This document shows, one piece after another, positions 1 to 54,988 of a stretch of DNA of 64,000 bases. Within the stretch, counting starts at the first letter, position 1; each line of letters opens with the position of its first letter. The notes beneath the pieces are model-generated. The model did no database searches, was not told the DNA's origin, and was given only the letters and a program-made list of their open reading frames with translations. The translations under genes were made by a program, and so were the position numbers. Source of the stretch: Naegleria gruberi (Eukaryota); the NCBI GenBank assembly GCA_000004985.1, contig GG738864.1; one strand, 5' to 3'.

Positions 1-1109
1 GTAATCAATGGGGAAGTATCTTAATTCCAAAATTAAATTTAACCATCATAGCATAATCATTGAACAATGAATTATTTATGCAACAATAATATATTCAATT
101 GTCATATTCATGTCAGTAATCAGTGAAGGTGACACTTCTTAACCCTTAGTATACACATCTCAATATGTAGACAGTCAATTCCACTGAAACTTGAAATATT
201 ACCTATCTAGATGATATAATGATGATTCTCCATAGTAACATGCATGTGTAATTGAATGTTGACACTTTTCATCTTGTTATATTTATAGAGATGGTATCCA
301 ACAGAGTCAGTTCACAATATTAAATATTGAAACTCATTCTATATGACATGTTTGATGTATGGTACGGGTTTTTATTGATTGTAATCAGTTTGAAATAATT
401 TGATGAAATTGACACTGTCTAGTCTCCATTACATGACAAATAGACCATAGTTTACATTCCATCTCAGTCATTTCAACGAGTTATTGATTAATTCCACCAC
501 CATTATGTTTCTCATACATTGTAGTACAGTTTATATTTCAAGAGTGATTTCTGTGTAGATTATTATAATCGTAATATCATCCAATACCAATAAAACTCAA
601 TAGAAGAGTTAATTCATCTCATTTTCAAATAGATTATTCAATATAGAACACATCTAGATAGTTTCCAGATCACAAAAGTCAAGATACTATATATGGTCTT
701 TGATTAAATTTAAAAATAGACTGCCGTTAATTACTGGAATATTAATTCAAAGCTTGTTGATCAAGCTATTGATTGAAATCAAACCGATTATTGAATATTG
801 ATCATTGAATTGGTGAATAATCACTCTCTTGATAATGTTACTTATTCATATTGCATGCAAATCAACCTGATTCAATCTACAAAGGTTGGTAGTTGCACCA
901 CTTCGTGGCGAAACTACCCATCCACGATGAATCAACATGTGATTCACTTCCATTCAACTCAATTTGACCGTTATAATCAATAAATCAATGAAATGTTTCT
1001 TTATTAGCAATACCTGTTCAATCCAATGAGTAGATTCACGTCCCAAACATTTGACTTCTAAAAGTCCATAATTCAAAAGTTAGTACTGACCTGACCTTTA
1101 AATATCTGT

Positions 1110-1159: not shown

Positions 1160-1590
1160 AAACCCAACCCCAAACCCAAACCCAAACCCAAACCCAAACC
1201 CAAACCCAACCCCAAACCCAAACCCAAACCCAAACCCAAACCCAAACCCAAACCCAAACCCAAACCCAAACCCAACCCAAACCCAAACCCAAACCCAAAC
1301 CCAAACCCAAACCCAAACCCAAACCCAAACCCAAACCCAAACCCAAACCCAAACCCAAACCCAAACCCAAACCCAAACCCAAACCCAAACCCAAACCCAA
1401 ACCCAAACCCAAACCCAAACCCAAACCCAAACCCAAACCCAAACCCAAACCCAAACCCAAACCCAAACCCAAACCCAAACCCAAACCCAAACCCAAACCC
1501 AAACCCAAACCCAAACCCAAACCCAAACCCAAACCCAAACCCAAACCCAAACCCAAACCCAAACCCAAACCCAAACCCAAACCCAAACCC
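1160..1590. repeat. Telomere-type hexamer array (CCCAAA)n, about 72 units. On the opposite strand this is TTTGGG, with a few CCCCAA/TTGGGG variants.
   Basis: Perfect tandem 6-mer repeats are read directly. Variant units with an extra C occur near the left edge and around 1200-1280. The 'GFGFGF' and 'GLGLGL' ORFs in the track are translation artefacts of this array. Confidence 0.9.
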
Positions 1591-2235
1591 ACGACTAAGG
1601 TCAGACCCGACATTTTGACTTTTATTCATCTTAATTAATTTTCTCAATAAATACTCATTATAAATCAATATATTATATATCAATATACTCCAAATTGAAT
1701 ATATAATCATATTATAACATAATATTACATCATTATAATAACTATTATAAGTTAATTTCATATAATAGATTAGACAATTAGAAAATCAATAAAAACATTT
1801 CAAAATCATTTCAAATCAATATATCACCTTATTAATCATGTTAATAACAATATATATCAATTTCAAATACTTTGGTATCATTTCAGGATATTTACTATTC
1901 AACTTGTCAACTGACCTATACTAACATTGAAGATAGAAATCTATACCACTTCAATTCACTTCCAATACATCTATATATGTTAATGAAATACAATAATATC
2001 AATTTGACATTCATCCATATCATACATGGTACATGGCTGATCCACTTGATACCTACAGGGATGTGACAATGACATCTACAATACAGATCATTATGAAATT
2101 GATACAGTACCTTACTAATGGTGAATAAACACTACTGTATCAGTTTCATGACAATTTGAAATCATTCAACATGTCAGGAGTGTAATCATGAGAATAATGA
2201 ATGTCAAGATAATGAAATCATATTAATTTTTAAAT

Positions 2236-2285
2236 NNNNNNNNNNNNNNNNNNNNNNNNNNNNNNNNNNNNNNNNNNNNNNNNNN
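2236..2285. other. Assembly gap (50 N)
   Basis: Run of 50 N. Confidence 0.95.
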
Positions 2286-2823
2286 TAAGGTAGAATGAGT
2301 ACAGTATACTAAGGATATTATAAATTATATTTTCAACAATTCTACAAGGTAGATATCATCATTATACATCATATATATGAGATTGGTGATGATTCTATTA
2401 ACATTCATATAATAGTACAATAAATGTTGAAAATTTAATATTTAGACATGTTGTAATTTATTTAATATACCGATTCAACATGATTAATTCATAATATCAT
2501 CTATTCATACATATATCTACAATATATTAAAATTTACATTCCAACCCAACTTTGAAATTTTAGACCTACTAGGGTAAATACCTTAATATTTTAGGCAATG
2601 CCTTATAACTTTTTGGCCTCCAACTATGTTTTAATTTTTTCACCGAATTTAGTCAACTCGTATATTGATCTATTGATTATGTGTAGATGGTATTTCAGAT
2701 ATTCCTAGTTATTGAGATATGCGAAGAAAACCTAACTTTTTTTTCATCGAGTACCTATTATCTCTAGAACCACTTTGAGTTTTTATTAGCATATAACAGT
2801 TTGTCGATGAAATTGTACCCTGA

Positions 2824-5800
2824 TTAACATATATAAGATCCAAGTTTTAAATATTGGCCATTAATAAAATGGTAATGGGTTTTCGCCATACCCAAACCCA
2901 ACCCCAAAACCCTCTGAGTTGAAATTTCTATTTCACTCTTGATTGCTTGATTAACTACATTGTCAAGAATGGTAAAGGACTTGTCAATAATGTTTTGTCC
3001 CAGTTTTTCTTCCTTATTTACCATCGAGTGAAGGGCATAAACGATAATTGAAGAAGTTGATTCAGATATTGTTTCTTCTGAAATAGTTTCAATAGCACTT
3101 GTCAAGGTATCTAGAAGTTGAGTTTGAATTTGAGATACAATTGTGGAGTCTTGTTGATCTTGAGGTAGCGTTTTTAACATTTGAGTTGCTGAAACAATTG
3201 TGTTAATTGTTTGAGAGATACTTTGAGATGCATCTCCGTCTTGAATGAAAGATGTCTTGATAATATTTGTTTGATTGGTAACTTGCTTAAATATTTCACT
3301 TATTGATGATACAATAATACTTGTAACAGTGACATTTGAATACATTATTCTTGATTCTCCAGTTGCTGAATCTATTAGTTCAATATACAAATTAACTATT
3401 TCATGGTTCATTGCTGGTAATTTGAAGGTGCCTTCTGGGGTCAGAGTAATTCCAACTTTAATTCCACTTTCCGCATCAATGTAGCCTTGCTTAATTTGAA
3501 TGGTGTTGGCTTCATTTTGACAGTTTTGACACGTCAAGGTAAAATCAGTCGTCATTGAGAAACCAGCTGAAGGAATGACTGAACATGGACACTTCTTTGG
3601 TTTGGATGCCTTAAAGTAACTAAAAGTGCTTTCAGATAGAGAAATTTCAATCAACTCATTAGAGCCACTTTGCTGTTTAACAAATGAAACCAAAAATTGA
3701 ACGGAATGATCAATACCTTCTTCCAAACCACTGACATCAATAATAATTCCACTTTGTTCTTTGTTGTTAACAATCTTTGCGTAACTTGAAAAAGGAGAAG
3801 CTGCTGCTGTTGAAATAGCATCTGATGCTGAACTAACACTCTCATATAAAATAAATCCATCTATTTTCCATTGAGTTTTAAGAAGCATTGAAGAATCTGA
3901 AACATCTCGCTCTGAATGAATTACCTCAATCGAAATCTTATCATTTCCCTTTACTATGGATTTAGAAGCAGGAGAAACATTAATAACTTTTACAATTGGT
4001 GGAGAATGAACAATATTCAAAGTTATGGAAGCTGAAACTTGTCTTTCACCTTTTGTAATTGTTAGTGTGAATTTTGGTTTTTCCAAAGAGACAAAGTCTT
4101 CCTTTTTCATAATTATCAAAGTTGACTGATCAAGGGAATACTGAGTCAATTTACCACTTGCACTGCTCCCACAATAACCATTAGATTCTGAATTGACACA
4201 ATTCCATTGCCAAACTTCCTTTTCATCCAAGTTACTTTCAGGGTCGACATAATTAACTTGAATACTGTTACTCAGAGATGATGATTCCTTCAGTGACAGC
4301 GATAACAATAGATCAGGCTGAATTGTATTGACGATAATAGAATCACTATTTGCTTGATTATTAGCAGCCACTATTGAAACCTTGAAAATAAACTTCCATT
4401 GTCCACTTGGGAACTTGTCAATAATCAAATTGTTTTTGGAATCTTTTCTGAATTTAAGGGATGGTCCACTAACTTGTTCCCAGTCAATATTAACTTGTTG
4501 ACCTATCAAGTAAGAAGGTACAAAAGCTGTCTTTTTGATAGTAACTAGCTTGCTAATTGACTTGTATGAAACTTCCTTTTCTCCAATGATAGAAACTGCT
4601 GGAAGCTCAACTTCTTGAATTTCGAAACTTAGGTACTCAACTGAGCTCACTTGGCTAGTTGCCTTACTTTTCACAATCAATGAAACATTGTAAACGCCTT
4701 GTCTTAAAATTCCCCTCTCAACCTTAATAGATGATCCTTTGGAAGAACTTATTGCAGAAAATACAGAGATAGGAATTGAATTTCCTTCAATATTCCAATA
4801 ATATTCCAATTCCTTCTTGTCACCAGAATAACTATTAGCTCCACTAATATAAATGTCCTCATTGACAAAGTAAACCTTCTTTGTGGATTTAATTTTTGCT
4901 ACAGGACTTTGTAGAGTATTTGGAATGATAATGTACATTCGTGTATAATCATTGAGTGCTCGTTTTTTAGTTTTCTTTAAGAAAACATTAGTATTTAATC
5001 TAAAGCTCAAGTTTGCATCTAGCTTGAAATCATAATCAAATTGAATCTTGAAATTGGAATTTGTCTTGTTTGTCCAGAAACATTTAGGTTCTGTTCCAAA
5101 AATTGACACATCGTCTGAATGTATAAGATTTGAACATGAAATTGAATTGGAAGTGTAGGTAGCAGGAGCAAATAGCTTGAAAGTTACACCATCAAAACTT
5201 GGAGTTATCTCTGCGTAAACACTGTCGACTAATGTATAGTTAGCATTAGGGACTGTTAAAGGTATCTCATGGGATGTCTTATTTTCACAATAGTTAGGTT
5301 TCGTACAGTTACCGGTTCCATTGCAAACATTTGGATCCTCAGATAAAATACCGAAACAAATAGGTAATGAACAATTAGCTCCGTAATATCCTTCTCTACA
5401 TCCAATACCACTGGTATTGTTAAAGGAAATTGTTTGATTTGTACTAAGGGTGTCATTAGTATTGTCTGTTGTAATGTTATTAATAAGTGATGAATTAATG
5501 TTTGAAAGATTATTTCCAGTTACATTGGCATTTTCAATTGTTAGATTATTAGAATGAAAAATTGTAGAGTTCAGGGTTTCTGTGGAATTTGATTCAGTGG
5601 AATTATCAACAGTTTCGTTAGAAATTGCTTTAGTATCGTTTGTGGTCGTATTAAGAGTGGAGTTGAGCTTATTTTCAATTGAGGAAGTATTTGAATTCTC
5701 AGTTATATTACCGACTGAAGAATTATCAAGAGTTGAATTAAGAGTATTGTTAATGGTTGTGGCATTTGAATGTTCAACAGTTGAATTAGTCCTGTCAGAT

Positions 5801-7887
5801 GTAGTACCATTAAGAGTGGTGTTGAGATCAATTGAGGAAGTATTTGAATTTTCAATTGAGGTATTTGCAAAAATAGTATTATTACTCTCGGTTATATTAC
5901 CGACTGAAGAAGAAGTATATAGAGTGGAATTAAGAGTTGTGGCATTTGAATTTTCAAGAGTTAAATTAGTACGGTCAGTACCATTAAGAGTGTTGATATT
6001 ATTTTCAATTGAGGTAGTATTTGAATTCTCAATTGAACTATTTGAAAATGACGTGTTTTCAAAATTGGAAGTATTCATAACTACTGTGGTATTACTGACT
6101 GATGTGTTTGTAACATTGGTTGAGTTTGTGTTTAAAGAAGTGGGTTGAGTTGAATTAAAACCATCAATAGTAGTTACATTACTCGAAGTATTTGAAGAAA
6201 CAATGGAATTGCTGTCCGATACAGTAGTTGAGTTGAACGTTGAGTTAGTTGACTGGGATGAGTTATCACTTGTACTTGTTGTATTGCTGAAGACAGTAAA
6301 ATTACCTGGCTCTTCATGTGTTGAGCTTGAATTTGTGTTCAAAGAGGAATTATTGAAAGTGGAATTTAGACTGGTATTCGTATTCGAAACACCCAATGTC
6401 CCGTTCAATAATGAAATGTTAGTGTTGGTTTGGTTGGAAATAGTATTCTCGAAATTAGTGCTATTTACGGTAATAGAAGTATTACTCTGTGTCAAATTAC
6501 TATATGATGCGTTTGTAAAATGCTGGGTGGAATTAGAGGTTAGGGAGGTAGTATTAAATATTGTGGAATGATTCATTGATTGTGTTGAATTAAGGGTATT
6601 ATTAATTGAGGAAACATTAGTTGAATTTCCAAATGTTGAATTAGTTGTACTATTAATTCTGAACGTAGAATTAAATTGGGTGGAATTAAGAATTGAAGTA
6701 TTACTTGGAACAGAGCAATCTAAAACAGTTAATTCATCATTGAATGGAGATTCACCACTCACAATACTATTAAGGTCGAATGAGGCTAGGAACATGTCAT
6801 AAATATCACTAGGGGAGTGGAAGAAAAAGAGTTTAAAATCATTATCTGCATCCTGTTGAGCTTCTAAAGAAGCTTCATTGCAGAATTGGGTGTTTGTGGT
6901 TTGGAACAAATATACACCAATAACATCATCTGATGCTCTTTTTGTAATTGTTGAACCAATGACTGTTATCGAAGAAGTAGTACTGTTACTTGTAGTGTTG
7001 ATTAAAGAATTTGTTAGTGAAATATCAACTTCTTGACACGCTGATCCAAGAAATCCAGGTTTACAAGCACATTTGTTAGGTAGTGTACAATTACCGTTTC
7101 CACTGCAAACAAGTGGATCTGAGGACTGAATTCCAAAACAAATTAGTAAGGGTGATTCATACACTACTATGGTTGCATTTAAAAACACAGATTGACATTG
7201 TGCTCCAATAAAACCAGCTTTGCAAGTACATACATTTGGTTTCGCGCAATAACCATTTCCACTGCAAACAAATGGATCTGAAGATTGAATTCCAAAACAA
7301 ATTGGAAAGCCGCAAATAAAAAAGTTAATAGAGTCTGTACAATCAATCTCAGAAGATAGATACACAGGTCCAGACTGACATTGTTCTCCAATAAAACCAG
7401 CTTTGCAAGAGCATTCATTTGGTTTCGCGCAATAACCATTTCCACTACAAACAAGTGGCTCTGAAGATTGAATTCCAAAACAAGATATTAAGCTGGAAGC
7501 ATTTCCTCCTTCTGGGTCTTTGTCACAAATCCCGTCCTCACATGTTAGTTGTGATAATTTTCTAATATTGAATTGATTTTCTATAAAGTATATATCTCCA
7601 TTCGACTGATCTATTGCTAAGGAAGTTGCTCCAATTAAAGAGTTTTCAGATATAATTCCATCCGGGGTTTCTCCTTGGGTACCATTTCCAAGAATTGTAA
7701 TAATTTGGTTATCACTTCCAATTGATATCTTATTAATCTGATAGTTATTGTTGCATGTGGTAGTCCAGTACAGTTCATCATTAAAGCAATCCCAGGAAAC
7801 ATAACACACAACATTAAATGTGAAGTTTCCGTACTCATTAATTTTCGTAATGTAGAAGGGACTCCGTAATCCAGAGGAATCATACAC
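2824..7887 (-). CDS. Giant secreted or surface glycoprotein, main exon. It has NHL-like beta-propeller segments, 5 or more tenascin-type EGF-like repeats of the form CFGIQSS[DE]P[LF]VCSGNGYCxxPNxCxCKxGFxGxxCQ, and a ~650-aa Ser/Thr/Asn-rich mucin-like region with dozens of N-x-S/T sequons. The exact 3' end is uncertain.
   Basis: This is a 1687-codon open frame. The tool's start codon is GTG, which lies just after the acceptor of a 35-nt GT-AG intron. The repeated Cys spacing is typical of tenascin/ComC-like EGF modules. The C-terminal ~15 codons read through a telomere-like fragment, so the true stop or last exon is probably elsewhere. Confidence 0.65.
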   Translation of the reverse strand: MYDSSGLRSPFYITKINEYGNFTFNVVCYVSWDCFNDELYWTTTCNNNYQINKISIGSDNQIITILGNGTQGETPDGIISENSLIGATSLAIDQSNGDIYFIENQFNIRKLSQLTCEDGICDKDPEGGNASSLISCFGIQSSEPLVCSGNGYCAKPNECSCKAGFIGEQCQSGPVYLSSEIDCTDSINFFICGFPICFGIQSSDPFVCSGNGYCAKPNVCTCKAGFIGAQCQSVFLNATIVVYESPLLICFGIQSSDPLVCSGNGNCTLPNKCACKPGFLGSACQEVDISLTNSLINTTSNSTTSSITVIGSTITKRASDDVIGVYLFQTTNTQFCNEASLEAQQDADNDFKLFFFHSPSDIYDMFLASFDLNSIVSGESPFNDELTVLDCSVPSNTSILNSTQFNSTFRINSTTNSTFGNSTNVSSINNTLNSTQSMNHSTIFNTTSLTSNSTQHFTNASYSNLTQSNTSITVNSTNFENTISNQTNTNISLLNGTLGVSNTNTSLNSTFNNSSLNTNSSSTHEEPGNFTVFSNTTSTSDNSSQSTNSTFNSTTVSDSNSIVSSNTSSNVTTIDGFNSTQPTSLNTNSTNVTNTSVSNTTVVMNTSNFENTSFSNSSIENSNTTSIENNINTLNGTDRTNLTLENSNATTLNSTLYTSSSVGNITESNNTIFANTSIENSNTSSIDLNTTLNGTTSDRTNSTVEHSNATTINNTLNSTLDNSSVGNITENSNTSSIENKLNSTLNTTTNDTKAISNETVDNSTESNSTETLNSTIFHSNNLTIENANVTGNNLSNINSSLINNITTDNTNDTLSTNQTISFNNTSGIGCREGYYGANCSLPICFGILSEDPNVCNGTGNCTKPNYCENKTSHEIPLTVPNANYTLVDSVYAEITPSFDGVTFKLFAPATYTSNSISCSNLIHSDDVSIFGTEPKCFWTNKTNSNFKIQFDYDFKLDANLSFRLNTNVFLKKTKKRALNDYTRMYIIIPNTLQSPVAKIKSTKKVYFVNEDIYISGANSYSGDKKELEYYWNIEGNSIPISVFSAISSSKGSSIKVERGILRQGVYNVSLIVKSKATSQVSSVEYLSFEIQEVELPAVSIIGEKEVSYKSISKLVTIKKTAFVPSYLIGQQVNIDWEQVSGPSLKFRKDSKNNLIIDKFPSGQWKFIFKVSIVAANNQANSDSIIVNTIQPDLLLSLSLKESSSLSNSIQVNYVDPESNLDEKEVWQWNCVNSESNGYCGSSASGKLTQYSLDQSTLIIMKKEDFVSLEKPKFTLTITKGERQVSASITLNIVHSPPIVKVINVSPASKSIVKGNDKISIEVIHSERDVSDSSMLLKTQWKIDGFILYESVSSASDAISTAAASPFSSYAKIVNNKEQSGIIIDVSGLEEGIDHSVQFLVSFVKQQSGSNELIEISLSESTFSYFKASKPKKCPCSVIPSAGFSMTTDFTLTCQNCQNEANTIQIKQGYIDAESGIKVGITLTPEGTFKLPAMNHEIVNLYIELIDSATGESRIMYSNVTVTSIIVSSISEIFKQVTNQTNIIKTSFIQDGDASQSISQTINTIVSATQMLKTLPQDQQDSTIVSQIQTQLLDTLTSAIETISEETISESTSSIIVYALHSMVNKEEKLGQNIIDKSFTILDNVVNQAIKSEIEISTQRVLGLGLGMAKTHYHFINGQYLKLGSYIC
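2891..2912. repeat. Short telomere-like fragment cccaaacccaaccccaaaaccc lying inside the 3' end of the giant minus-strand ORF
   Basis: About 3.5 degenerate units of the same CCCAAA family. On the minus strand it translates to the ...GLGLGMAK... tail of ORF 2824..7887. Confidence 0.6.
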
Positions 7888-7922
7888 CTACAACAGTTAA
7901 ATTGGATGAATGAATAACTTAC

Positions 7923-8486
7923 ATTTAAGAAGAGAGTACTTTTACAATAAATAAAATTGATTCGAAAATCTCTTAACATGTTATCATTTGCATAATTTGT
8001 TCTACTTCCACTTGTGATGTTATGAATCATGGGTTGATAAATATCAAGAGAATAAGCATTATCTGTGGTATGATCAACTGAAAAATGAGTAAACAATCCC
8101 GTAATTGTGGTATGTTGTTTTGAATTTGGGTCCAGTATGGTTATTCCATAAGAATCAATCCAAACCAAACTTCCCTTCCATAGATAAATCCATTGTTCAT
8201 GCAATGCAAAAACATTCCTTGAACCACTACCCAAATCTAACAGTTCAGACCTACCAGCTTGTAGCCCCTTAAATTCATATCCGTTCTGCAAGAAATAACT
8301 GGTTTTATTCTTGCTTTCAAATGCCAGGCTTGATATTGGGTATAGACTAGATGTATAAACTGTTGAAATCCGATATTTTTCTGATGCATCCACAAGACAA
8401 CATCCAACAATCACCAACAGCACCAACAACAAATACACATGCTTTGTGTACAGAGTGTATTTTTTCCTAGAGTATGAAAGACGCAT
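7923..8486 (-). CDS. Exon 1 of the same glycoprotein gene: genuine ATG, signal peptide VYLLLVLLVIVGCCLVDA, and about 170 aa of N-terminal domain
   Basis: ATG CGT CTT... on the minus strand at 8486. A hydrophobic signal follows. The donor is AAT|gtaagt at 7922/7923 and the acceptor is ...tgttgtag|GTG TAT GAT at 7888/7887. The splice keeps the frame (LFLN|VYDSSG). Confidence 0.6.
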
Positions 8487-40549: not shown

Positions 40550-42172
40550 ATTGAACACGGAAGTAATGTCAGACAACTCCAAACTACTGCCACTTTTGAT
40601 GAAAATACTAACGAATTCATTATCAACACTCCAAATAAGGGTGCTGTAAAGTGGTGGCTCGGTAATGCTGCTTGTCACGGTGTTATGGCTACTGTCTTTG
40701 CCAGACTCATTTTGAAGGGTAAGGATTATGGTGTCCATGCATTCCTCTGTCCAATCAGAGATGCCCAAACACATAAACTCATGCCTGGTGTTATTGCTGG
40801 TGACTGTGGTGACAAGATTGGTTTGCACGGTATTGACAATGGCTTCTTGGAATTTACCAATGTTCGTGTTCCATATGATAATTTGTTGGACAGATTTGGA
40901 GGTATTGATTTGAATACCAAGAGTTACAAGTCTGACTATGAAAATCCAGACAGAAGATTTGCTGCTGTTTTGGGTGAATTGATTACTGGTAGAGTTACCC
41001 TCATCAGTGGTTCAATTAATTGCAGAAGAGCTGCCCTTATGATTGCTACTCGTTATGCTAGTCAAAGATGTCAATTTGGTCCTGGAAAGGATTTACCAGA
41101 ACAACCAATTCTTGACTACAAGTCACACAAGGTCAAGTTGATGCCAATCATTGCCTCTGCCTATGCCTATGAATTTACCAAGAGAAAGGTTATCAAGAAG
41201 TATTGCAGAATGCACTTGGAAAAGGTCAGTGACGATGAATTACAAGAAGTTCACGCCCTTGCTGCTGGTGTTAAGGCTGTTATCACTTGGGATACTCAAG
41301 AATATTTGCAAACCCTCAGAGAAATGTGTGGTGGTCATGCTTACTCTGCATATAACCGTTTGGGTGCTGTTCGTGATGATCACGATGTTTTCCAAACCTT
41401 TGAAGGTGATAACACTGTTCTCATCCAACAATTGGGTGGTTTCTTGTTGAAGGAATTCAGTAGACAATTCACTGGTGAAATGATTTCTGATTCTATCAAT
41501 TATATTAGAAAGCAAGTTGGTGGTATGCTCACAAAGAGAAATCCAGTCATTACTAGATTTGCCAGTAAGAAGCACTTGAGAAATTCTGAATTCCATCTCC
41601 AAGCTTTTGAATACAGAACTGCCAAATTGCTCCAAGAATGTGCCATTGAAATTAATGGTAGAAAGAAGAAGCAAGGCATGTTCCATGCTTTCAATGAATC
41701 TCTTCCAAAACTCATTCGTTTGGGTAGAGCTTATGTTGAACAAGTTGCTCTCCAAGACTTCCTCAGTGAAATTGAAAATATCACTGATTCTGAACTTAAG
41801 CGTATTTTGAAATTGATGGCTGACTTGTTTGCTTTGGATACCATGTCTAAGAATATTGGTGAATTCCTTGACCTCATTAAGAAGAACAAGTTCTCTGCCA
41901 TCCAAAACATGATTGAATGGTTGTGTGATGAATTAAGAGTCCATGCTGTTTCCTTGGTCGATGCTTTCGGTTTCCCAGACTTCCTTCTTGATGCTCCAAT
42001 TGGTAAGAGAGATCATGGTAATTATGTTCACCACATTCTTGATTATGCTCTCACTAGAAATAAGGGTAATGCTGATATTGTTGGCAAGATGGTCACAGCC
42101 AAGAAGGTCAACAAGAAACAAGTTGTCAGAGATGAAAGAGAAACTAACGATGTCATGGAAATTGATTTGTAA
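40550..42172 (+). CDS. Acyl-CoA oxidase, exon 2
   Basis: After the ~83-nt intron the protein reads IEHGSNVRQLQTTATFD...WWLGNAA..., then GFLEFTNVRVPYDNLLDRF and CGGHAYSAYNRLG. These are the ACOX N-terminal, middle and C-terminal domain signatures. The frame is consistent with ORF 40685..42172. Confidence 0.85.
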   Translation: MEHGSNVRQLQTTATFDENTNEFIINTPNKGAVKWWLGNAACHGVMATVFARLILKGKDYGVHAFLCPIRDAQTHKLMPGVIAGDCGDKIGLHGIDNGFLEFTNVRVPYDNLLDRFGGIDLNTKSYKSDYENPDRRFAAVLGELITGRVTLISGSINCRRAALMIATRYASQRCQFGPGKDLPEQPILDYKSHKVKLMPIIASAYAYEFTKRKVIKKYCRMHLEKVSDDELQEVHALAAGVKAVITWDTQEYLQTLREMCGGHAYSAYNRLGAVRDDHDVFQTFEGDNTVLIQQLGGFLLKEFSRQFTGEMISDSINYIRKQVGGMLTKRNPVITRFASKKHLRNSEFHLQAFEYRTAKLLQECAIEINGRKKKQGMFHAFNESLPKLIRLGRAYVEQVALQDFLSEIENITDSELKRILKLMADLFALDTMSKNIGEFLDLIKKNKFSAIQNMIEWLCDELRVHAVSLVDAFGFPDFLLDAPIGKRDHGNYVHHILDYALTRNKGNADIVGKMVTAKKVNKKQVVRDERETNDVMEIDL

Positions 42173-42223: not shown

Positions 42224-45200
42224 TTAATGGAAGTTAGATTGAGGAGTTTCACCATTTTCCAATGTATGATGGTAGTTTTTGGTATTCTTTCGAATATGGT
42301 AAACGGTTCCAATCAGCGTTACTAACAATACACTGAATGAAATTAATGAGATTGAAACCAATGCCAGAATATATGAGTGCCCACTGCTTGCTTGAACTTG
42401 TGGAGAATAAACAGGAAGGGGGTTCACTATAGGAGTCAATACACAAGCTTGCATTGTATCAGAAACCTTATAATCACTGTTTGAGCAGTAAGGAGTCAAC
42501 ATTCTAATTCTATCACTCTCGTCGTCAGTAAAGTAAACAGATAGTCCATCACTTGAGAAGGAGAGGGAACGAGAAAAGGTTAATCTTGTTGGTTTGGCAT
42601 CACCATCCCCATTGTAACCAAAATCAAATCCTGCTATTCTTTCCACTATGGCATTCTCCTCTCTCCACAAAAGTTTGAATATTCCACTACTTGAGTGTTC
42701 CGTAAATAGAACATATTGGTCATTAGCTAGGATGCTAGCTGGGTATGACAATAAAGTGTCCTTTCCTTTTGAACCTTCTCTGATGAATGAGTGTTGATGA
42801 GGTTTTCCAATAACTGTTGAAATAATTCCTTTAGAAATCTTTCTAATAATGAAATTTCTCTGATCCACAAAGAATAAATCGCCATTCTTCGTAAGACTCA
42901 TATGAGTTGGGCTATTAAGCAAAGCTTTGGATGCATCTGTTTCATCGTTATAGCCATGAACCCCAGGAATTCCATAAAGTGTTGACATTATACCATTTTT
43001 TGAAACTTTTCTAATAACATGATGACCAGAGTCAGCAATTAAAATCTCATCCTCAGGAGTCACTATGAAAGAGCCAGGATCATATAATAGTGCCTGATTT
43101 GCTGGTAAGCCATCACCTATTCCACCGCCAATAGTTTTGACCAATCCATTCGATAGTTTTCTTATTAATCCCTTTTTAGGTTCAGTAAATAATATGTCTT
43201 GCTCTGTTTCTCCAAATGACAAGCCATTAAGGAATGTGAAATGAAACCTTGTTGGGTCACTCAAATCATTGGCAGAAACTGTAATATTTCCAACTAAAAG
43301 GGTCAATTTACCTTCTGAAAACTTGCTTAAAGAGCCAGGCAAATGTGTTACATAAATATCATCACTTTTGGAAAGAATCAAGTGTTGAGGTCCATAAACT
43401 TCAAATACTGTGGAGATATTTCCGTTTGGTGAAATCCTTTTCACTTTTCCGTCCAACATGTCTGTCATATAAATTTCTTCTTTTGAATTTACAGCAATAC
43501 TTGATGGTCTAATGAAATAGTCAGCTCCCTGTGTAACAATTTCAACCATGTCACCAACTACTTTCAAAATTCTATTATTGTTTGCATCTGCTACATAGAG
43601 TTTGTCATCTTCAGTAACATATAAACCTTCTGGGAAATCCAATTGAATATCAGTAGCTGTTCTATTTCTAATATCACTCACACCTGTAACACCACTTCCT
43701 AAAACAGTTTCCATTTTCTTTTCTTCAATATTCACTTTTTTAACTTCAGATCCTGTTGAAAAGTATATTAAACCATTTCTTTCAAAGATCGCCAGTGGTT
43801 CTTCAATGAACGTATTGATAATTGCAGAGCTATCCATTCCAACAAGAGTTGAAATAATGCCCTTCTTATTGATTGCTCTGATTCTTTGATTTTTGGTATC
43901 AGCAATTAATACCATTTCTAATTGATTGGAATAAAAGACTGATAATGGATGATAGAGGAGAGCACTTGTAGCTAATGAGCCATCTCCATAATAGTGATGT
44001 CTGGTTCCAGCAACTCGAATAACCTTCCCAGTGGCTGATGAGAATTTATAAATAGTGTCATCCTGTGTGAAATAAACATCATTGCCAACTCTTTGAGCCA
44101 TAATATTAGGGTGATTCTCCAATTTAACCTTATTTAAAGGCAAATCATCTAGGTATTTGTGAGTGGAGATGGCTGATTTTACTCCCAATGTATGAGTAAT
44201 GATTGAATTTGCAATGGTACGAATTTTAGGATATTCCAAGTGGTCGACTAGGGTAACAATATCCCTTCCATTCTTTGACGTTACATGAATGTGATGAGGA
44301 GTTGATTGGGATTGAATGGCAGGTTTACCATTACCAAAGTAGAACTTTTCACCATTACCAAAAGAATTTGTGACTTGCCCATTTCCATCAATCTTAAAGA
44401 TGATATTGCTTTGAACACTGGCTACATAAATATCAGCACTATTTTCGAATTGAATCAATGAGTAAGGAAGAGTGATTTTAGAACTTGGAATGGAGAAAAT
44501 CTTTCCTTCAGATGTTATTTTCCTAACACCATCAAAACTCAATTCTGTGAATAGGATTTCATTATTGTGGTTGACAAAGATCTTGTGAGGTACAATACTG
44601 ACATTCGTGGCGATGTAACCATCAATAACAGGAAGATCTACTCCCTTACCAGCAATGATTGTAACAATACCATTCTCAACCTTTCTAATATTATAGGTAT
44701 CAGTAATGTAAACTATTGTCTTTCCACTCTTTGAATCATACTTTACAAAAACAGAACTAGGATTAGTCAAGAGATCATTTGATTCCACAACAGAATCATC
44801 AGCATCTCCACTCTTTCCACATTTTCCAGCAACTATTGTAATGTTACCACTCGATAATTCAATCTTCCTTATCCAATGATTGTGTGTTTCAACAACGTAC
44901 AAATATTCCTCACTTCCTTCACTGGAATGAAAAAGATCTTGAATTTGTAAAAAACCAGGATTTTCTACAGTTGTTTCTGAATCAACTTGACACCTCTCAT
45001 TATTTCTACTATTAGAAGCCACTAGAACAATCCTTCCACTTGAATCAATCTTTTTAATTTCATTTCCAAAAGTTTCCACAAAGTAAACTTGCCCACTCTT
45101 CTTGGAAACAGTCAAGGCATGAGGAGAGATTTTCTGTTGTGTGGCCATCTGTGATTCAAACCATCCAACAAAACCAGAAACTCCAGCAATAACCTCAACA

Positions 45201-45532
45201 ACCTTAGAAGGCTCACCCTCAATAAGAGATAACCTCTTTATCAGACCACTCATTCCATCTACAACAAATAGATAATTTTGATAGTAATCCATTGATAGAG
45301 GTCTTCCGATTGGCAATTCATCAGGTGATAATAATGTTTCTCCACCAGCAATGGTTGAAATATTGTACTGGAGAGGAGCATACCTTTGACCAGCTTGTTC
45401 ATTCTTCCTTAATTGCTGACTTGAAACCAGCCTCGTCATTATGATCATCACAATAACACTCATCATTGGCATTATTCTTCTAAGAGTTGTTATTACTTTC
45501 ATTGTTGATGAGGAAGGAACGGAGGAGGACAT
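42224..45532 (-). CDS. NHL-repeat type I transmembrane protein (1102 aa) with a multi-blade beta-propeller ectodomain, a single C-terminal TM and a short tail
   Basis: A real ATG and a signal-like segment MPMMSVIVMIIMTRLVSS are present. NHL-type repeats are IYVTDTYNIRKV, VLIADTKNQRIRAI, LYVADANNNRILKV and ILIADSGHHVIRKV. The TM is ILALVSISLISFSVLLVTLIGTVY. Confidence 0.75.
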   Translation of the reverse strand: MSSSVPSSSTMKVITTLRRIMPMMSVIVMIIMTRLVSSQQLRKNEQAGQRYAPLQYNISTIAGGETLLSPDELPIGRPLSMDYYQNYLFVVDGMSGLIKRLSLIEGEPSKVVEVIAGVSGFVGWFESQMATQQKISPHALTVSKKSGQVYFVETFGNEIKKIDSSGRIVLVASNSRNNERCQVDSETTVENPGFLQIQDLFHSSEGSEEYLYVVETHNHWIRKIELSSGNITIVAGKCGKSGDADDSVVESNDLLTNPSSVFVKYDSKSGKTIVYITDTYNIRKVENGIVTIIAGKGVDLPVIDGYIATNVSIVPHKIFVNHNNEILFTELSFDGVRKITSEGKIFSIPSSKITLPYSLIQFENSADIYVASVQSNIIFKIDGNGQVTNSFGNGEKFYFGNGKPAIQSQSTPHHIHVTSKNGRDIVTLVDHLEYPKIRTIANSIITHTLGVKSAISTHKYLDDLPLNKVKLENHPNIMAQRVGNDVYFTQDDTIYKFSSATGKVIRVAGTRHHYYGDGSLATSALLYHPLSVFYSNQLEMVLIADTKNQRIRAINKKGIISTLVGMDSSAIINTFIEEPLAIFERNGLIYFSTGSEVKKVNIEEKKMETVLGSGVTGVSDIRNRTATDIQLDFPEGLYVTEDDKLYVADANNNRILKVVGDMVEIVTQGADYFIRPSSIAVNSKEEIYMTDMLDGKVKRISPNGNISTVFEVYGPQHLILSKSDDIYVTHLPGSLSKFSEGKLTLLVGNITVSANDLSDPTRFHFTFLNGLSFGETEQDILFTEPKKGLIRKLSNGLVKTIGGGIGDGLPANQALLYDPGSFIVTPEDEILIADSGHHVIRKVSKNGIMSTLYGIPGVHGYNDETDASKALLNSPTHMSLTKNGDLFFVDQRNFIIRKISKGIISTVIGKPHQHSFIREGSKGKDTLLSYPASILANDQYVLFTEHSSSGIFKLLWREENAIVERIAGFDFGYNGDGDAKPTRLTFSRSLSFSSDGLSVYFTDDESDRIRMLTPYCSNSDYKVSDTMQACVLTPIVNPLPVYSPQVQASSGHSYILALVSISLISFSVLLVTLIGTVYHIRKNTKNYHHTLENGETPQSNFH

Positions 45533-47304: not shown

Positions 47305-47375
47305 GCGTCGATGGTTTAGTGGTAGAATACGGCGTTGCCATCGCCGTGACCCGGGTTCAATTCCCGGTCGACGCA
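47305..47375 (+). tRNA. tRNA-Gly (anticodon GCC)
   Basis: The 71-nt sequence is GCGTCGATGGTTTAGTGGTAGAATACGGCGTTGCCATCGCCGTGACCCGGGTTCAATTCCCGGTCGACGCA. It has a 7-bp acceptor stem GCGTCGA/TCGACGC, a D-arm, the anticodon loop TTGCCAT and a T-arm GGGTTCAATTCCC. A T-run (TTTTT) lies about 15 nt downstream. Confidence 0.88.
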
Positions 47376-53629: not shown

Positions 53630-54988
53630 ATGACAAGAGAAATCATTTCCATCTCCGTAGGTCAATGTGGTAACCAAATTGGCCAACAATTCTGGAGAAC
53701 CATCTCCCAAGAACATGGATTATCAATGGATGGTCATTCAACCAACACTGCTTCTCCACTCGAAAAGGAAAATCTCGGTGTTTACTTCTCCGAATCATCC
53801 GACAGATATGTCCCACGTGCTGTTTTAGTTGATTTGGAATCAGGTGTTTTGGATTCTGTTAAATCCTCATCCCAAGGTCAATTATTCCGTCCAGATAACT
53901 TTATCAATGCTGCCTCAGGTGCTGGTAACAATTGGGCTAAAGGTTTCTACACTGATGGTACTGAATTAATTGATGAAATTATTGATACTATTAGAAAGGA
54001 AAGTGAATCATGTGATAGTTTGCAAGGATTCCAATTAACCCACTCATTGGGTGGTGGTACTGGTTCTGGATTAGGTACCTTGTTAGTCTCCAAAATTAAG
54101 GAAGAATTCCCAGATAGAATGTTGGCTACCTTCTCAGTTTTTCCAAGTGCTAAAGTTTCTGATACCGTTGTTGAACCATACAATGCTACTTTGAGTATTC
54201 ATCAATTGATTGAAAATGCTGATCAAGTTTTCACTATTGATAATGAAGCTCTTTTTGATATTTGCACAAAGAGTTTGAAATTGGCAACTCCAAACTTTGA
54301 AGATTTGAATCAATTGATTGCTTCTGTCATGTCTGGTGTTACTTGTAGTTTGAGATTCCCAGGTCAATTGAACTCTGATTTGAGAAAATTGAGTGTTAAT
54401 TTGGTTCCATTCCCAAGATTGCACTTCTTTATGGTTTCAAATGCTCCAATTGTTGCTGAATATAACAAGCAATACCATAACTTGTCAATTGCTGAATTGA
54501 CTTCTCAAATGTTCTCCAGAAAGAATATGTTTGCTGCCTGTGATCCAACTTCAGGTAAATACTTGGCTGCTAGTGCCATTTTCAGAGGAGCCAACTTGTC
54601 AACCAGTGATATCGATCAACAAATGTTGAGTCTCCAAACCAAATCCAAAGATAATTTTGTTTCATGGATTCCAAACAATATCAAATCATCTGTTTGTGAT
54701 GTAGCTCCAAAGAATTTGCCAGTTTCTGGAACTTTCATTGGTAACACAACTGCCATTCAAGATGTTTTCAAGAGAATTGGAACTCAATTCCATCAAATGT
54801 ATAAGAAGAAGGCCTTCTTGCATTCTTATATTAATGAAGGAATGGACCAAATGGAATTCACTGAAGCTGAAGCTAATATGAATGATTTGATTAATGAATA
54901 TCAACAATATCAAGATGCTACCATTGAAGATGATGTTGATGGTGGTTTTGGAGGTAATGCTGATGATGAATTGCAACAACAAGAATAA
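53630..54988 (+). CDS. tubB: Beta-tubulin, a highly divergent single-exon gene
   Basis: The motifs are [28 protein letters not shown] and [34 protein letters not shown]. By eye it is about 65% identical to canonical beta-tubulin. It has an extra Thr after Met1 and an acidic C-terminal tail. Confidence 0.9.

What the first reader, a model, noticed from the sequence alone, without database searches (positions are those of the whole stretch)
2824..2930. The giant glycoprotein ORF ends by reading through a telomere-like fragment
The last ~12 codons of the 1687-codon ORF (…RVLGLGLGMAK…) are encoded by cccaaacccaaccccaaaaccc, about 1.3 kb inside the main telomeric array. Two explanations fit. The gene's real 3' end may have been lost to a break healed by telomere addition. 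Alternatively the true last exon may be spliced elsewhere and this read-through is fortuitous.
Basis: inference. Interest (0 to 1): 0.5.

Follow-up and report, generated by a model that had tools for sequence, protein, structure and literature searches.

The report
Surface-protein gene cut off at telomere scar
Near a chromosome end of the amoeba Naegleria gruberi, a large surface-glycoprotein gene has lost its membrane-anchor end at a short telomere-repeat scar, so the annotated protein tail is accidental read-through; this is a clear but ordinary example of chromosome-end breakage and repair.

Summary
The window is Naegleria gruberi. The 1687-codon ORF (2824-7887, minus strand) is the main exon of NAEGRDRAFT_48552 (D2VD89, 1765 aa), and the public gene model ends at the same stop.

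A 22-nt tract (2891-2912, CCCAAACCCAACCCCAAAACCC) is the only telomere-like run outside the 72-copy CCCAAA array at 1160-1591. It has the same polarity as the array and the same variant units. Simulated sequences gave none.

Homology to every informative relative stops exactly at this tract:
- The closest in-genome paralogue, NAEGRDRAFT_71165, is 50% identical over 438 aa. The alignment ends at ...EISTQ, the codon touching the tract.
- Nucleotide identity to a near-identical (at least 90%) metagenome copy of that paralogue falls from 64% to 31% across the junction.
- The three closest relatives run on for 322-338 residues and more distant family members for up to about 480, with a Cys motif, one transmembrane helix and a cytoplasmic tail. 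This protein has none of these.

The DNA beyond the tract is 25-26% GC, has stops in all frames and holds no candidate exon.

So the 3' end was lost at a break that received telomeric repeats. The last 29 codons (about 7 from the tract, 21 from non-coding DNA) are fortuitous.

Caveats: the tract is now internal, the link to the terminal array crosses a 50-N gap, and there are no transcript data. It is a new member of a known kind, of modest interest.

The parts
1160..1591 (+). Terminal-type telomere array. (CCCAAA)n reads on the + strand, so (TTTGGG)n runs 5'->3' leftwards, the polarity of a left chromosome end.
   Evidence: TRF finds 72.2 copies at 98% matches. The units are 66 CCCAAA, 3 CCCAA, 2 CCCCAAA and one terminal CCCA. 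TTTGGG is the candidate N. gruberi telomere repeat (PMC3622300).
1110..1159 (.). 50-N scaffold gap between the array and a 1.1-kb contig (1-1109) placed beyond the telomere.
   Evidence: Read directly. The 1-1109 contig is 30% GC, non-coding, and unrelated to the rest of the window.
1592..2235 (.). Subterminal AT-rich non-coding DNA, contiguous with the array.
   Evidence: GC is 24.7% and stops occur in all three minus-strand frames. There is no similarity elsewhere in the window.
2236..2285 (.). 50-N scaffold gap. The link between the gene contig and the telomere contig depends on it.
   Evidence: Read directly.
2286..2826 (.). AT-rich non-coding DNA distal to the tract and contiguous with the gene. 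It contains the fortuitous stop TAA (2824-2826, - strand).
   Evidence: GC is 26.3% against 33.6% in the gene, with 6.5-10 stops per 100 codons in every frame. No paralogue-tail homology.
2827..2890 (-). 21 read-through codons (MAKTHYHFINGQYLKLGSYIC) from non-telomeric, non-homologous DNA.
   Evidence: Translation. Nucleotide identity to the paralogue gene is 31% here against 64% upstream. P(21 open codons) is about 0.16 at the local stop frequency.
2891..2912 (+). Interstitial telomeric tract CCCAAACCCAACCCCAAAACCC. On the gene strand it reads GGGTTTTGGGGTTGGGTTTGGG and encodes (R)VLGLGLG.
   Evidence: It is unique outside the array, with an expected count of about 0. It has the same polarity and variant units as the array.
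2914..7737 (-). Retained, family-homologous part of the main exon of NAEGRDRAFT_48552: EGF repeats, an N-glycosylation-rich Asn/Ser/Thr region, a REJ domain and the first part of a helical juxtamembrane region. The last homologous codon is CAG (Gln) at 2914-2916.
   Evidence: 100% identity to P0001 residues 129-1765. Pfam REJ 58.7 bits, EGF_2 42.8 bits. Homology ends at ...EISTQ.
7917..8468 (-). Upstream exons of the annotated model, including the hydrophobic signal-peptide-like segment.
   Evidence: tblastn of P0001 residues 1-140. Hydrophobic segment at residues 16-34.

Best explanation
A double-strand break fell inside the coding region of a subtelomeric EGF-REJ surface-glycoprotein gene of Naegleria gruberi. 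It lay immediately 3' of the Gln codon at 2914-2916.

Telomerase extended the centromere-proximal broken end with TTTGGG-type repeats. The distal part of the gene was lost: about 320-340 codons, encoding the rest of the helical region, a juxtamembrane Cys motif, the single transmembrane helix and the cytoplasmic tail.

The healed end later became internal. A very short or eroded new telomere acquired 1.3 kb of subterminal DNA plus a fresh terminal array, by capture or recombination with another chromosome end. This left a 22-bp interstitial telomeric scar.

The reading frame now runs through the scar and 21 codons of non-coding DNA to the first stop. The 29-residue C-terminus in the public annotation is therefore not ancestral. 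If the gene is expressed, the product is a secreted, anchor-less protein.

Shown: the truncation point, the telomeric nature and polarity of the tract, and the absence of the lost module from the window.

Inferred: telomerase as the agent, the order of events, the origin of the distal 1.3 kb, and expression.
For: - Identity: the ORF is 100% identical to N. gruberi EFC45190.1 / NAEGRDRAFT_48552, and the model ends at the same stop.
- The tract is the species' candidate telomere unit, with the array's own variants and polarity.
- BLASTP against the closest in-genome paralogue, P0064 (NAEGRDRAFT_71165), gives 50% identity over 438 aa. The alignment ends exactly at query ...EISTQ and subject residue 1519 of 1843.
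- phmmer against 1.84 billion representatives: the two closest relatives both match the query up to residue 271 of 299, which is the junction. They continue for 322 and 338 residues.
- An alignment with seven more distant family members ends at the same place. Six of them continue for a further 320-480 residues; the seventh, P0008, lacks most of that stretch but keeps the transmembrane anchor.
- Codon-aligned nucleotide identity to the paralogue-type gene in L001 is 64% in the 25 codons before the junction and 31% in the 25 after.
- All relatives with complete C-termini have one C-terminal transmembrane helix. P0001 has only the N-terminal hydrophobic segment.
- The distal DNA is non-coding in character and holds no tail-like exon.
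- Precedent: telomere healing and recombination compete at subtelomeric breaks in Plasmodium falciparum (PMC5550746).
Against: - The tract is not terminal. At least 605 bp of contiguous unrelated DNA lie distal to it, so a second event must be assumed. There is no direct evidence for that event.
- The link to the terminal array crosses a 50-N gap. A further contig is scaffolded beyond the telomere, so the local scaffold order is doubtful.
- No unbroken allele or true orthologue was found to show the ancestral sequence. The best relatives are 50-55% identical paralogues.
- N. gruberi genomic DNA outside the window could not be reached. It is therefore unknown whether the distal 1.3 kb is shared with other chromosome ends.
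- There are no transcript data.
Confidence: 0.5

Rival explanations
1. One-step repair junction. The break was never a functional chromosome end. Telomerase, or telomerase-primed synthesis, added about 3.7 repeats to the resected proximal end. That end was then joined directly to another DNA end. The other end was either this chromosome's own terminal 1.3 kb, which would mean an interstitial deletion removing the gene's 3' end, or ectopic DNA. The gene truncation and the fortuitous tail are the same as in the best explanation; only the history differs.
For: - The tract is very short, 22 bp. This is typical of short interstitial telomeric sequences inserted at double-strand-break repair sites in mammals (PMC2246262, PMC7215372).
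- It needs only one event.
- The distal DNA shows no sign of being a repeated subtelomeric element within the window.
Against: - Classical ITS insertions leave both flanks contiguous. Here the distal flank is not the continuation of the gene, so a deletion of at least 1 kb or a translocation must be added.
- The same polarity as the terminal array is required under healing but has only even odds here.
- The location 1.3 kb from a chromosome end fits end dynamics.
Confidence: 0.3
2. Assembly or cloning artefact. The junction gene / telomere-like tract / AT-rich DNA is a chimeric clone or a misassembly in the 2010 Sanger draft, or it represents one rare haplotype. The real gene would be intact.
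For: - Two 50-N gaps lie within 1.8 kb, and a contig is placed beyond a telomere array, so this scaffold end is poorly resolved.
- No second database sequence confirms the junction. The 90% cluster of P0001 has one member, and metagenome scans found nothing.
Against: - The junction lies inside a contiguous contig, 605 bp from its end.
- The tract carries the species-specific variant pattern and the correct polarity for this chromosome end. A random chimera would not be expected to show either.
- No protein with a near-identical N-terminal part and an intact tail appears among the hits.
Confidence: 0.08
3. The true last exon(s) lie elsewhere, hidden in the 2236-2285 gap or further away, and are spliced on. 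The read-through would then be an annotation error on an intact gene.
For: - The gap size is unknown.
- The gene model has introns at its 5' end.
- GT dinucleotides exist near the junction.
Against: - Homology ends at the telomeric tract, not at a recognisable splice donor.
- About 1 kb of coding sequence would have to sit in the gap, after more than 600 bp of 26%-GC DNA with stops in every frame.
- tblastn with 11 tails finds nothing in the window.
- It does not explain why a telomere tract lies exactly at the homology boundary.
Confidence: 0.05
4. The tract is native coding sequence. Gly-Leu-rich motifs open the transmembrane segment in paralogues (GLFGLLGLG, GLFGLFGL), and LGLG can be encoded by TTGGGT repeats. 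An internal deletion could therefore have fused ...STQ to the gene's own transmembrane start.
For: - Paralogue transmembrane segments begin with Gly-Leu/Phe runs.
- (TTGGGT)n translates to (LG)n.
Against: - No hydrophobic helix or basic stop-transfer sequence follows the tract in any frame. Tail maximum hydropathy is 0.3, against 2.8-3.4 in relatives.
- The paralogue motif has period 3, not 2.
- 18 nt are identical to the array, including its variant pair.
- GC content and nucleotide homology drop at the tract.
Confidence: 0.02

Closest known systems
Chromosome breakage and telomere healing that truncates subtelomeric genes in Plasmodium falciparum (Calhoun et al. 2017, PMC5550746; earlier KAHRP/HRP cases recalled from my own knowledge)
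   Same: A break inside a gene near a chromosome end. The species' telomere repeats abut the truncated coding sequence, with the G-strand pointing toward the end. The distal gene part is lost. Healing competes with recombination between chromosome ends.
   Different: In Plasmodium the added repeats are the actual terminus. Here the tract is 22 bp and internal, followed by about 1.3 kb of unrelated DNA before the terminal array. The organism is a free-living heterolobosean, and no experimental evidence exists.
Short interstitial telomeric sequences inserted at double-strand-break repair sites in mammals (Nergadze et al. 2007, PMC2246262; PMC7215372)
   Same: A few telomeric units at an internal site mark an old break repaired with the help of telomerase.
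   Different: Mammalian short ITSs are simple insertions with both flanks preserved. Here the distal flank is not the continuation of the gene. The site is within about 1.3 kb of a chromosome end and in telomere polarity.
Yeast subtelomere architecture: a core X element, internal TG1-3 tract, Y' element, then the terminal telomere (from my own knowledge)
   Same: A short internal telomeric tract separates chromosome-specific DNA from a distal block that carries the true telomere. It is explained by recombination or capture between short telomeres and other chromosome ends.
   Different: Whether the Naegleria distal block is a shared, repeated element is untested. It has no ORF and no detectable repeats within the window.
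REJ-domain surface receptors (polycystin-1 / sea-urchin REJ type) and the large Naegleria family with EGF repeats, a REJ domain and one transmembrane helix
   Same: The retained part has EGF repeats and a Pfam REJ domain, and it aligns with family members along its C-terminal 800 residues.
   Different: It lacks the juxtamembrane Cys motif, the transmembrane helix and the cytoplasmic tail that every complete relative has. Polycystin-type 11-TM and PLAT modules are not part of this family. A GAIN/GPS fold for the lost region could not be confirmed.

Membership tests
Terminal deletion healed by de novo telomere addition | Homology of the truncated gene to intact relatives ends exactly where telomeric repeats begin. 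| tested here: met
   BLASTP to P0064 ends at ...EISTQ. phmmer stretches end at query residue 271 of 299 for P0045 and P0046. Nucleotide identity goes from 64% to 31% across the junction. The multiple alignment ends at the same place.
Terminal deletion healed by de novo telomere addition | The repeats are the species' own telomere unit, with the G-rich strand running 5'->3' toward the chromosome end. | tested here: met
   The tract has the same unit, variants and polarity as the 72-copy array at 1160-1591. TTTGGG is reported as the candidate N. gruberi telomere (PMC3622300).
Terminal deletion healed by de novo telomere addition | The added repeats form the chromosome terminus, with nothing distal to them. 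| tested here: not met
   605 bp of contiguous AT-rich DNA follow the tract. After a gap, another 644 bp follow before the array. The present state is therefore an interstitial scar, not a healed end.
Terminal deletion healed by de novo telomere addition | A GT-rich seed or microhomology at the addition site, judged against the unbroken sequence. | not testable with these tools
   The junction reads CAG A|GGGTTTT. No unbroken allele or close orthologue is available to define the original bases.
Short interstitial telomeric sequence inserted at a break-repair site | A short run of telomeric units at an internal position. | tested here: met
   22 nt, about 3.7 units, at 2891-2912.
Short interstitial telomeric sequence inserted at a break-repair site | Both flanks are contiguous in the ITS-less ancestral locus (a simple insertion). 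| tested here: not met
   The distal flank does not continue the gene. No homology to paralogue tails was found in any frame. The ancestral locus itself is unavailable.
Naegleria EGF-REJ single-pass surface glycoprotein family | EGF repeats and a REJ domain. | tested here: met
   Pfam REJ scores 58.7 bits (cut-off 25) at residues 1141-1557. EGF_2 scores 42.8 bits and EGF_Teneurin 34.7 bits.
Naegleria EGF-REJ single-pass surface glycoprotein family | A C-terminal juxtamembrane Cys motif, one transmembrane helix and a short basic cytoplasmic tail. | tested here: not met
   These are present in P0004, P0005, P0006, P0008, P0009, P0010, P0011, P0045, P0046 and P0064, and absent from P0001.
GAIN/GPS-domain receptors (adhesion GPCR and polycystin-1 type) | The lost juxtamembrane region adopts a GAIN fold with a GPS motif. 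| tested here: inconclusive
   Pfam finds no GPS or GAIN hit on three paralogues. The AlphaFold2 model of the P0009 tail shows a helical bundle, then a beta subdomain, then a transmembrane helix, but mean pLDDT is only 64. Foldseek gives only weak GAIN hits: BAI3 4dlo_B, E 1.3e-3, TM 0.13-0.18; CELSR1 8vy2_A, TM 0.21.

The most novel reading that the evidence does not exclude
Naegleria chromosome ends may be remodelled by repeated cycles of breakage, telomerase healing and end capture or fusion. The 22-bp scar, a 7-nt inverted telomere-like motif beside it (GGGTTTT at 2877-2883) and the fresh array 1.3 kb away would be traces of a breakage-fusion-bridge-like history. Such events would act on the large EGF-REJ surface-protein family as a source of variants. 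Here a membrane-anchored receptor would have been converted into an expressed, secreted, anchor-less glycoprotein whose C-terminus is partly encoded by telomere repeats.
Probability: 0.1. Interest if true: 0.55.

Novelty: new member of a known kind. Interest (0 to 1): 0.3.

Why it matters
- It gives sequence-level evidence that chromosome breaks in a heterolobosean amoeba receive TTTGGG-type repeats. This supports the in-silico assignment of the Naegleria telomere repeat. It also shows that end healing or capture operates in a deep-branching eukaryote lineage where telomere biology is essentially unstudied.
- It flags the C-terminus of a public protein model (D2VD89 / XP_002677934) as non-ancestral read-through. 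The protein is probably a truncated, anchor-less family member or a young pseudogene.
- It marks this scaffold end as one that long reads should re-examine.
- It does not open a new kind of mechanism.

Tried and rejected
- Ciliate origin. The mix of TTTGGG and TTGGGG units first suggested Paramecium, with a reassigned TAA codon. I rejected this because many long standard-code ORFs are present and the ORF is a 100% match to N. gruberi.
- Fetching other N. gruberi DNA, to test whether 1592-2890 is a shared subtelomeric element. The look-up of encoding contigs has no N. gruberi genes on record.
- Exact-pattern scans of JGI metagenomes for the subtelomere/array junction and for the gene/tract junction. 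Both gave 0 hits.
- Word-index protein searches with the last 297 aa and with a profile of the lost tail. These aimed to find alleles or an orphan tail. They returned nothing or only one of the two query sequences (P0046), and did not recover P0001 or P0045, so they are uninformative.
- Repeats or similarity among 1-1109, 1592-2235, 2286-2890 and the rest of the window. Only chance-level matches were found.
- Downstream exon search by tblastn and by hydropathy of all stop-to-stop segments. Nothing was found.
- Identification of the lost region as a GAIN/GPS domain by Pfam, PDB sequence profile, AlphaFold2 and Foldseek. The result is inconclusive.
- tRNA and Rfam scans. Nothing lies near the finding.
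- Literature searches for the locus tag or accessions gave no paper. A search for Naegleria subtelomeres gave nothing relevant.
Full report
**What is in the sequence**

The + strand of the window begins with a 1.1-kb AT-rich contig (1-1109). After it come:
- 50 N;
- a 432-bp array of CCCAAA (1160-1591, 72 copies, 98% matches);
- 644 bp of AT-rich DNA;
- another 50 N (2236-2285);
- 605 bp of AT-rich DNA;
- the tract CCCAAACCCAACCCCAAAACCC at 2891-2912.

Immediately to the right of the tract lies the 3' end of a 1687-codon ORF on the minus strand (2824-7887). On the gene strand the end reads ...ACT CAG AGG GTT TTG GGG TTG GGT TTG GGT ATG GCG ... TGT TAA. This translates as ...T Q R V L G L G L G M A K T H Y H F I N G Q Y L K L G S Y I C *.

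The tract supplies about 7 codons (ORF residues 1659-1666). A further 21 codons of non-telomeric DNA follow before the stop at 2824-2826.

**Is the tract more than chance?**

Yes.
- Twelve-mers of the repeat with up to one mismatch are expected 0.31 times per window. Outside the array they occur only at 2891-2908.
- A tolerant pattern of C3-4/A2-4 units occurs nowhere else in 62 kb and in none of 300 Markov-1 simulations, even in a two-unit form.
- The tract has the same strand polarity as the array.
- Its first 18 nt are identical to array positions 1199-1216, including the array's characteristic CCCAA+CCCCAAA variant pair.

**Whose genome is it?**

The ORF is 100% identical over 1637 residues to Naegleria gruberi EFC45190.1 / XP_002677934.1 / NAEGRDRAFT_48552 / UniProt D2VD89. 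That protein is 1765 aa and sits on a 441,990-bp scaffold. The public model adds short 5' exons and ends with the same ...RVLGLGLGMAKTHYHFINGQYLKLGSYIC. The annotation therefore uses the read-through stop.

TTTGGG was proposed from genome data as the N. gruberi telomere repeat by Fulneckova et al. 2013 (PMC3622300). The array reads CCCAAA on the + strand, which is the polarity expected at a left chromosome end.

**What the protein is and what it lacks**

Pfam finds three EGF-type repeats and a REJ domain (58.7 bits, residues 1141-1557 of the ORF). Between them lies a long Asn/Ser/Thr-rich region full of N-glycosylation sequons. The model has an N-terminal hydrophobic segment (residues 16-34) but no other transmembrane segment.

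Relatives in N. gruberi, N. lovaniensis and metagenomes are mostly 2200-2700 aa. Every relative with a complete C-terminus has a single strongly hydrophobic helix 20-120 residues from its end, followed by a basic stretch.

**Where homology ends**

Four independent comparisons agree.
1. A MAFFT alignment was started at the conserved CxC...P.G...F..C..C motif and included seven family members. It keeps P0001 in register up to ...DKSFTILDNVVNQAIKSEIEISTQ. Six of the seven then continue for 320-480 residues through more helices, a Cys motif (C...CxC...V..E) and the transmembrane helix. The seventh, P0008, lacks most of that stretch but still ends in the transmembrane helix and a short tail.
2. An exhaustive phmmer search used the last 299 residues against 1.84 billion representatives. 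It found two much closer relatives, P0045 (51% identity) and P0046 (55%). For both, the matched stretch in the query ends at residue 271 of 299, which is the Arg codon straddling the junction. They have 322 and 338 residues beyond the match.
   - P0046 is N. gruberi NAEGRDRAFT_76569.
   - P0045 comes from an ENA metagenome contig and shares a 90% cluster with N. gruberi NAEGRDRAFT_71165 (P0064).
3. BLASTP against P0064 gives 50% identity over 438 residues. The alignment ends exactly at ...EISTQ in the query and ...DIFSQ in the subject, at residue 1519 of 1843.
4. With the DNA of the P0045 gene (L001), codon-aligned nucleotide identity is 64% in the 25 codons up to and including the Gln codon. 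It is 31% in the next 25 codons.

P0045, P0046 and P0064 each carry a C-terminal transmembrane helix (hydropathy 2.8-2.9). The 29-residue tail of the window ORF peaks at 0.3.

**Is the missing part nearby?**

No.
- tblastn of the tails of 11 relatives against the whole window gives only noise and nothing at all in 1-2900.
- The DNA distal to the tract is 24.7-26.3% GC, against 33.6% for the gene.
- It has 5.6-13.6 stops per 100 codons in each minus-strand frame.
- It contains no stop-to-stop segment with a hydrophobic helix followed by basic residues.
- At the local stop frequency (0.085 per codon), an open run of 21 codons has probability of about 0.16. The read-through needs no special explanation.

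**Interpretation**

The gene was broken immediately after the Gln codon at 2914-2916. The centromere-proximal end carries telomeric repeats in the orientation telomerase would add them. This is the signature of a break that received telomeric repeats.

The present state, however, is not a healed terminus. Unrelated DNA lies distal to the tract, so the defining feature 'repeats are terminal' is not met. Two histories fit.

- (a) Healing to a functional telomere, followed by erosion and capture of another end's subterminal DNA plus telomere. This resembles the internal TG tracts between X and Y' in yeast (my own knowledge). It also fits the competition between healing and recombination described for Plasmodium subtelomeres (PMC5550746).
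- (b) A one-step repair in which a few telomerase-added repeats were trapped at a junction with another DNA end. This resembles the short interstitial telomeric sequences of mammals (PMC2246262), but here with loss of at least 1 kb of the gene.

I favour (a) modestly. The polarity and the position 1.3 kb from an array are automatic under (a). The shortness of the tract fits (b) equally well. The two cannot be separated without the rest of the genome, which the tools could not reach.

**What was lost, structurally**

An AlphaFold2 model of the P0009 tail was built from a five-sequence alignment and has mean pLDDT 64. It shows:
- a beta-sandwich (residues 1-92);
- a helical bundle (99-275);
- a poorly predicted linker;
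- a beta subdomain (350-473) that ends just before the transmembrane helix (489-521).

The position homologous to the break is about residue 228, inside the helical bundle. The truncation therefore cuts a folded module.

The helical-plus-beta arrangement next to the membrane resembles a GAIN domain. Support is weak, though. Pfam finds no GPS, and a PDB sequence profile finds only EGF noise. Foldseek gives only marginal GAIN hits with TM-scores of about 0.13-0.21. I do not claim membership.

**Rivals**

- A hidden downstream exon is unlikely. Homology stops at a telomere tract rather than at a splice donor, and about 1 kb of coding sequence would have to hide in a gap behind 600 bp of non-coding DNA.
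- An assembly or cloning chimera cannot be excluded. This scaffold end is poorly resolved, with two gaps and a contig placed beyond a telomere. But the junction is inside a contig, and the tract has the right polarity and variant pattern for this end.
- A native Gly-Leu coding motif is rejected. Paralogue transmembrane segments do start with GLFGLLGLG, but no hydrophobic or basic sequence follows the tract in any frame. In addition, 18 nt are identical to the array.

**Limits**

- No transcript evidence and no unbroken allele are available.
- No true orthologue was found; the best relatives are 50-55% identical paralogues.
- There is no access to other N. gruberi chromosome ends.
- Two of the three word-index protein searches failed to return even their own source proteins and are uninformative.
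- The intact 5-kb ORF suggests either a recent event or continued selection on a secreted product. Neither could be tested.

**Verdict**

The phenomenon, a subtelomeric gene truncated at a telomere-repeat scar, is a known kind seen here in a new lineage. The practical outcomes are a corrected reading of the annotated C-terminus and a concrete locus for studying end repair in Naegleria.

Noticed in passing
window 1-1109 and gap 1110-1159: A 1.1-kb AT-rich (30% GC), non-coding contig is scaffolded beyond the terminal CCCAAA array. Nothing should lie distal to a telomere. Either the scaffold order is wrong (the contig could belong in the 2236-2285 gap) or the 432-bp array is itself interstitial.
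   Followed up: partly
window 2877-2883 versus 2906-2912: GGGTTTT on the + strand, 7 nt to the left of the tract, is the inverse complement of the tract's AAAACCC. This makes a miniature head-to-head telomere-like arrangement, as an end-to-end fusion would leave. My post hoc chance estimate is about 1%. It is too short to interpret.
   Followed up: no
window 1160-1591: All variant units of the array lie in its distal 120 bp, next to the gap: CCCAA+CCCCAAA pairs at 1163-1174 and 1205-1216, and CCCAA at 1271. The proximal ~310 bp are perfect CCCAAA. This is the reverse of the usual pattern, in which degenerate repeats lie proximally. It may reflect telomerase infidelity or read-end errors.
   Followed up: partly
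window 7738-8486 (- strand): The first predicted intron of the public gene model (after ...GLQA, GTAGGT...TTTCAG, 177 nt) is in frame and free of stops within ORF 7635-8486. Whether it is really spliced is uncertain, and the N-terminal model may be imprecise.
   Followed up: no
window 42224-45532 (- strand): A 1102-aa ORF with teneurin-type NHL repeats (TEN_NHL 92.7 bits). This domain type also occurs in several members of the EGF-REJ family found as homologues. It may be a related surface-protein gene 40 kb from the chromosome end.
   Followed up: no
window 47305-47375, 53630-54988, 40685-42172: Ordinary housekeeping content close to the chromosome end: tRNA-Gly(GCC), a tubulin gene and an acyl-CoA oxidase gene. 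Unique genes therefore start within a few kb of the telomere.
   Followed up: no
L001 (ENA metagenome ERZ929261, contig k127_25426, 5299 bp): An environmental metagenome contig encodes a protein that falls in the same 90%-identity cluster as N. gruberi NAEGRDRAFT_71165. This shows that close relatives of strain NEG-M are present in public metagenomes and could supply orthologous loci.
   Followed up: partly
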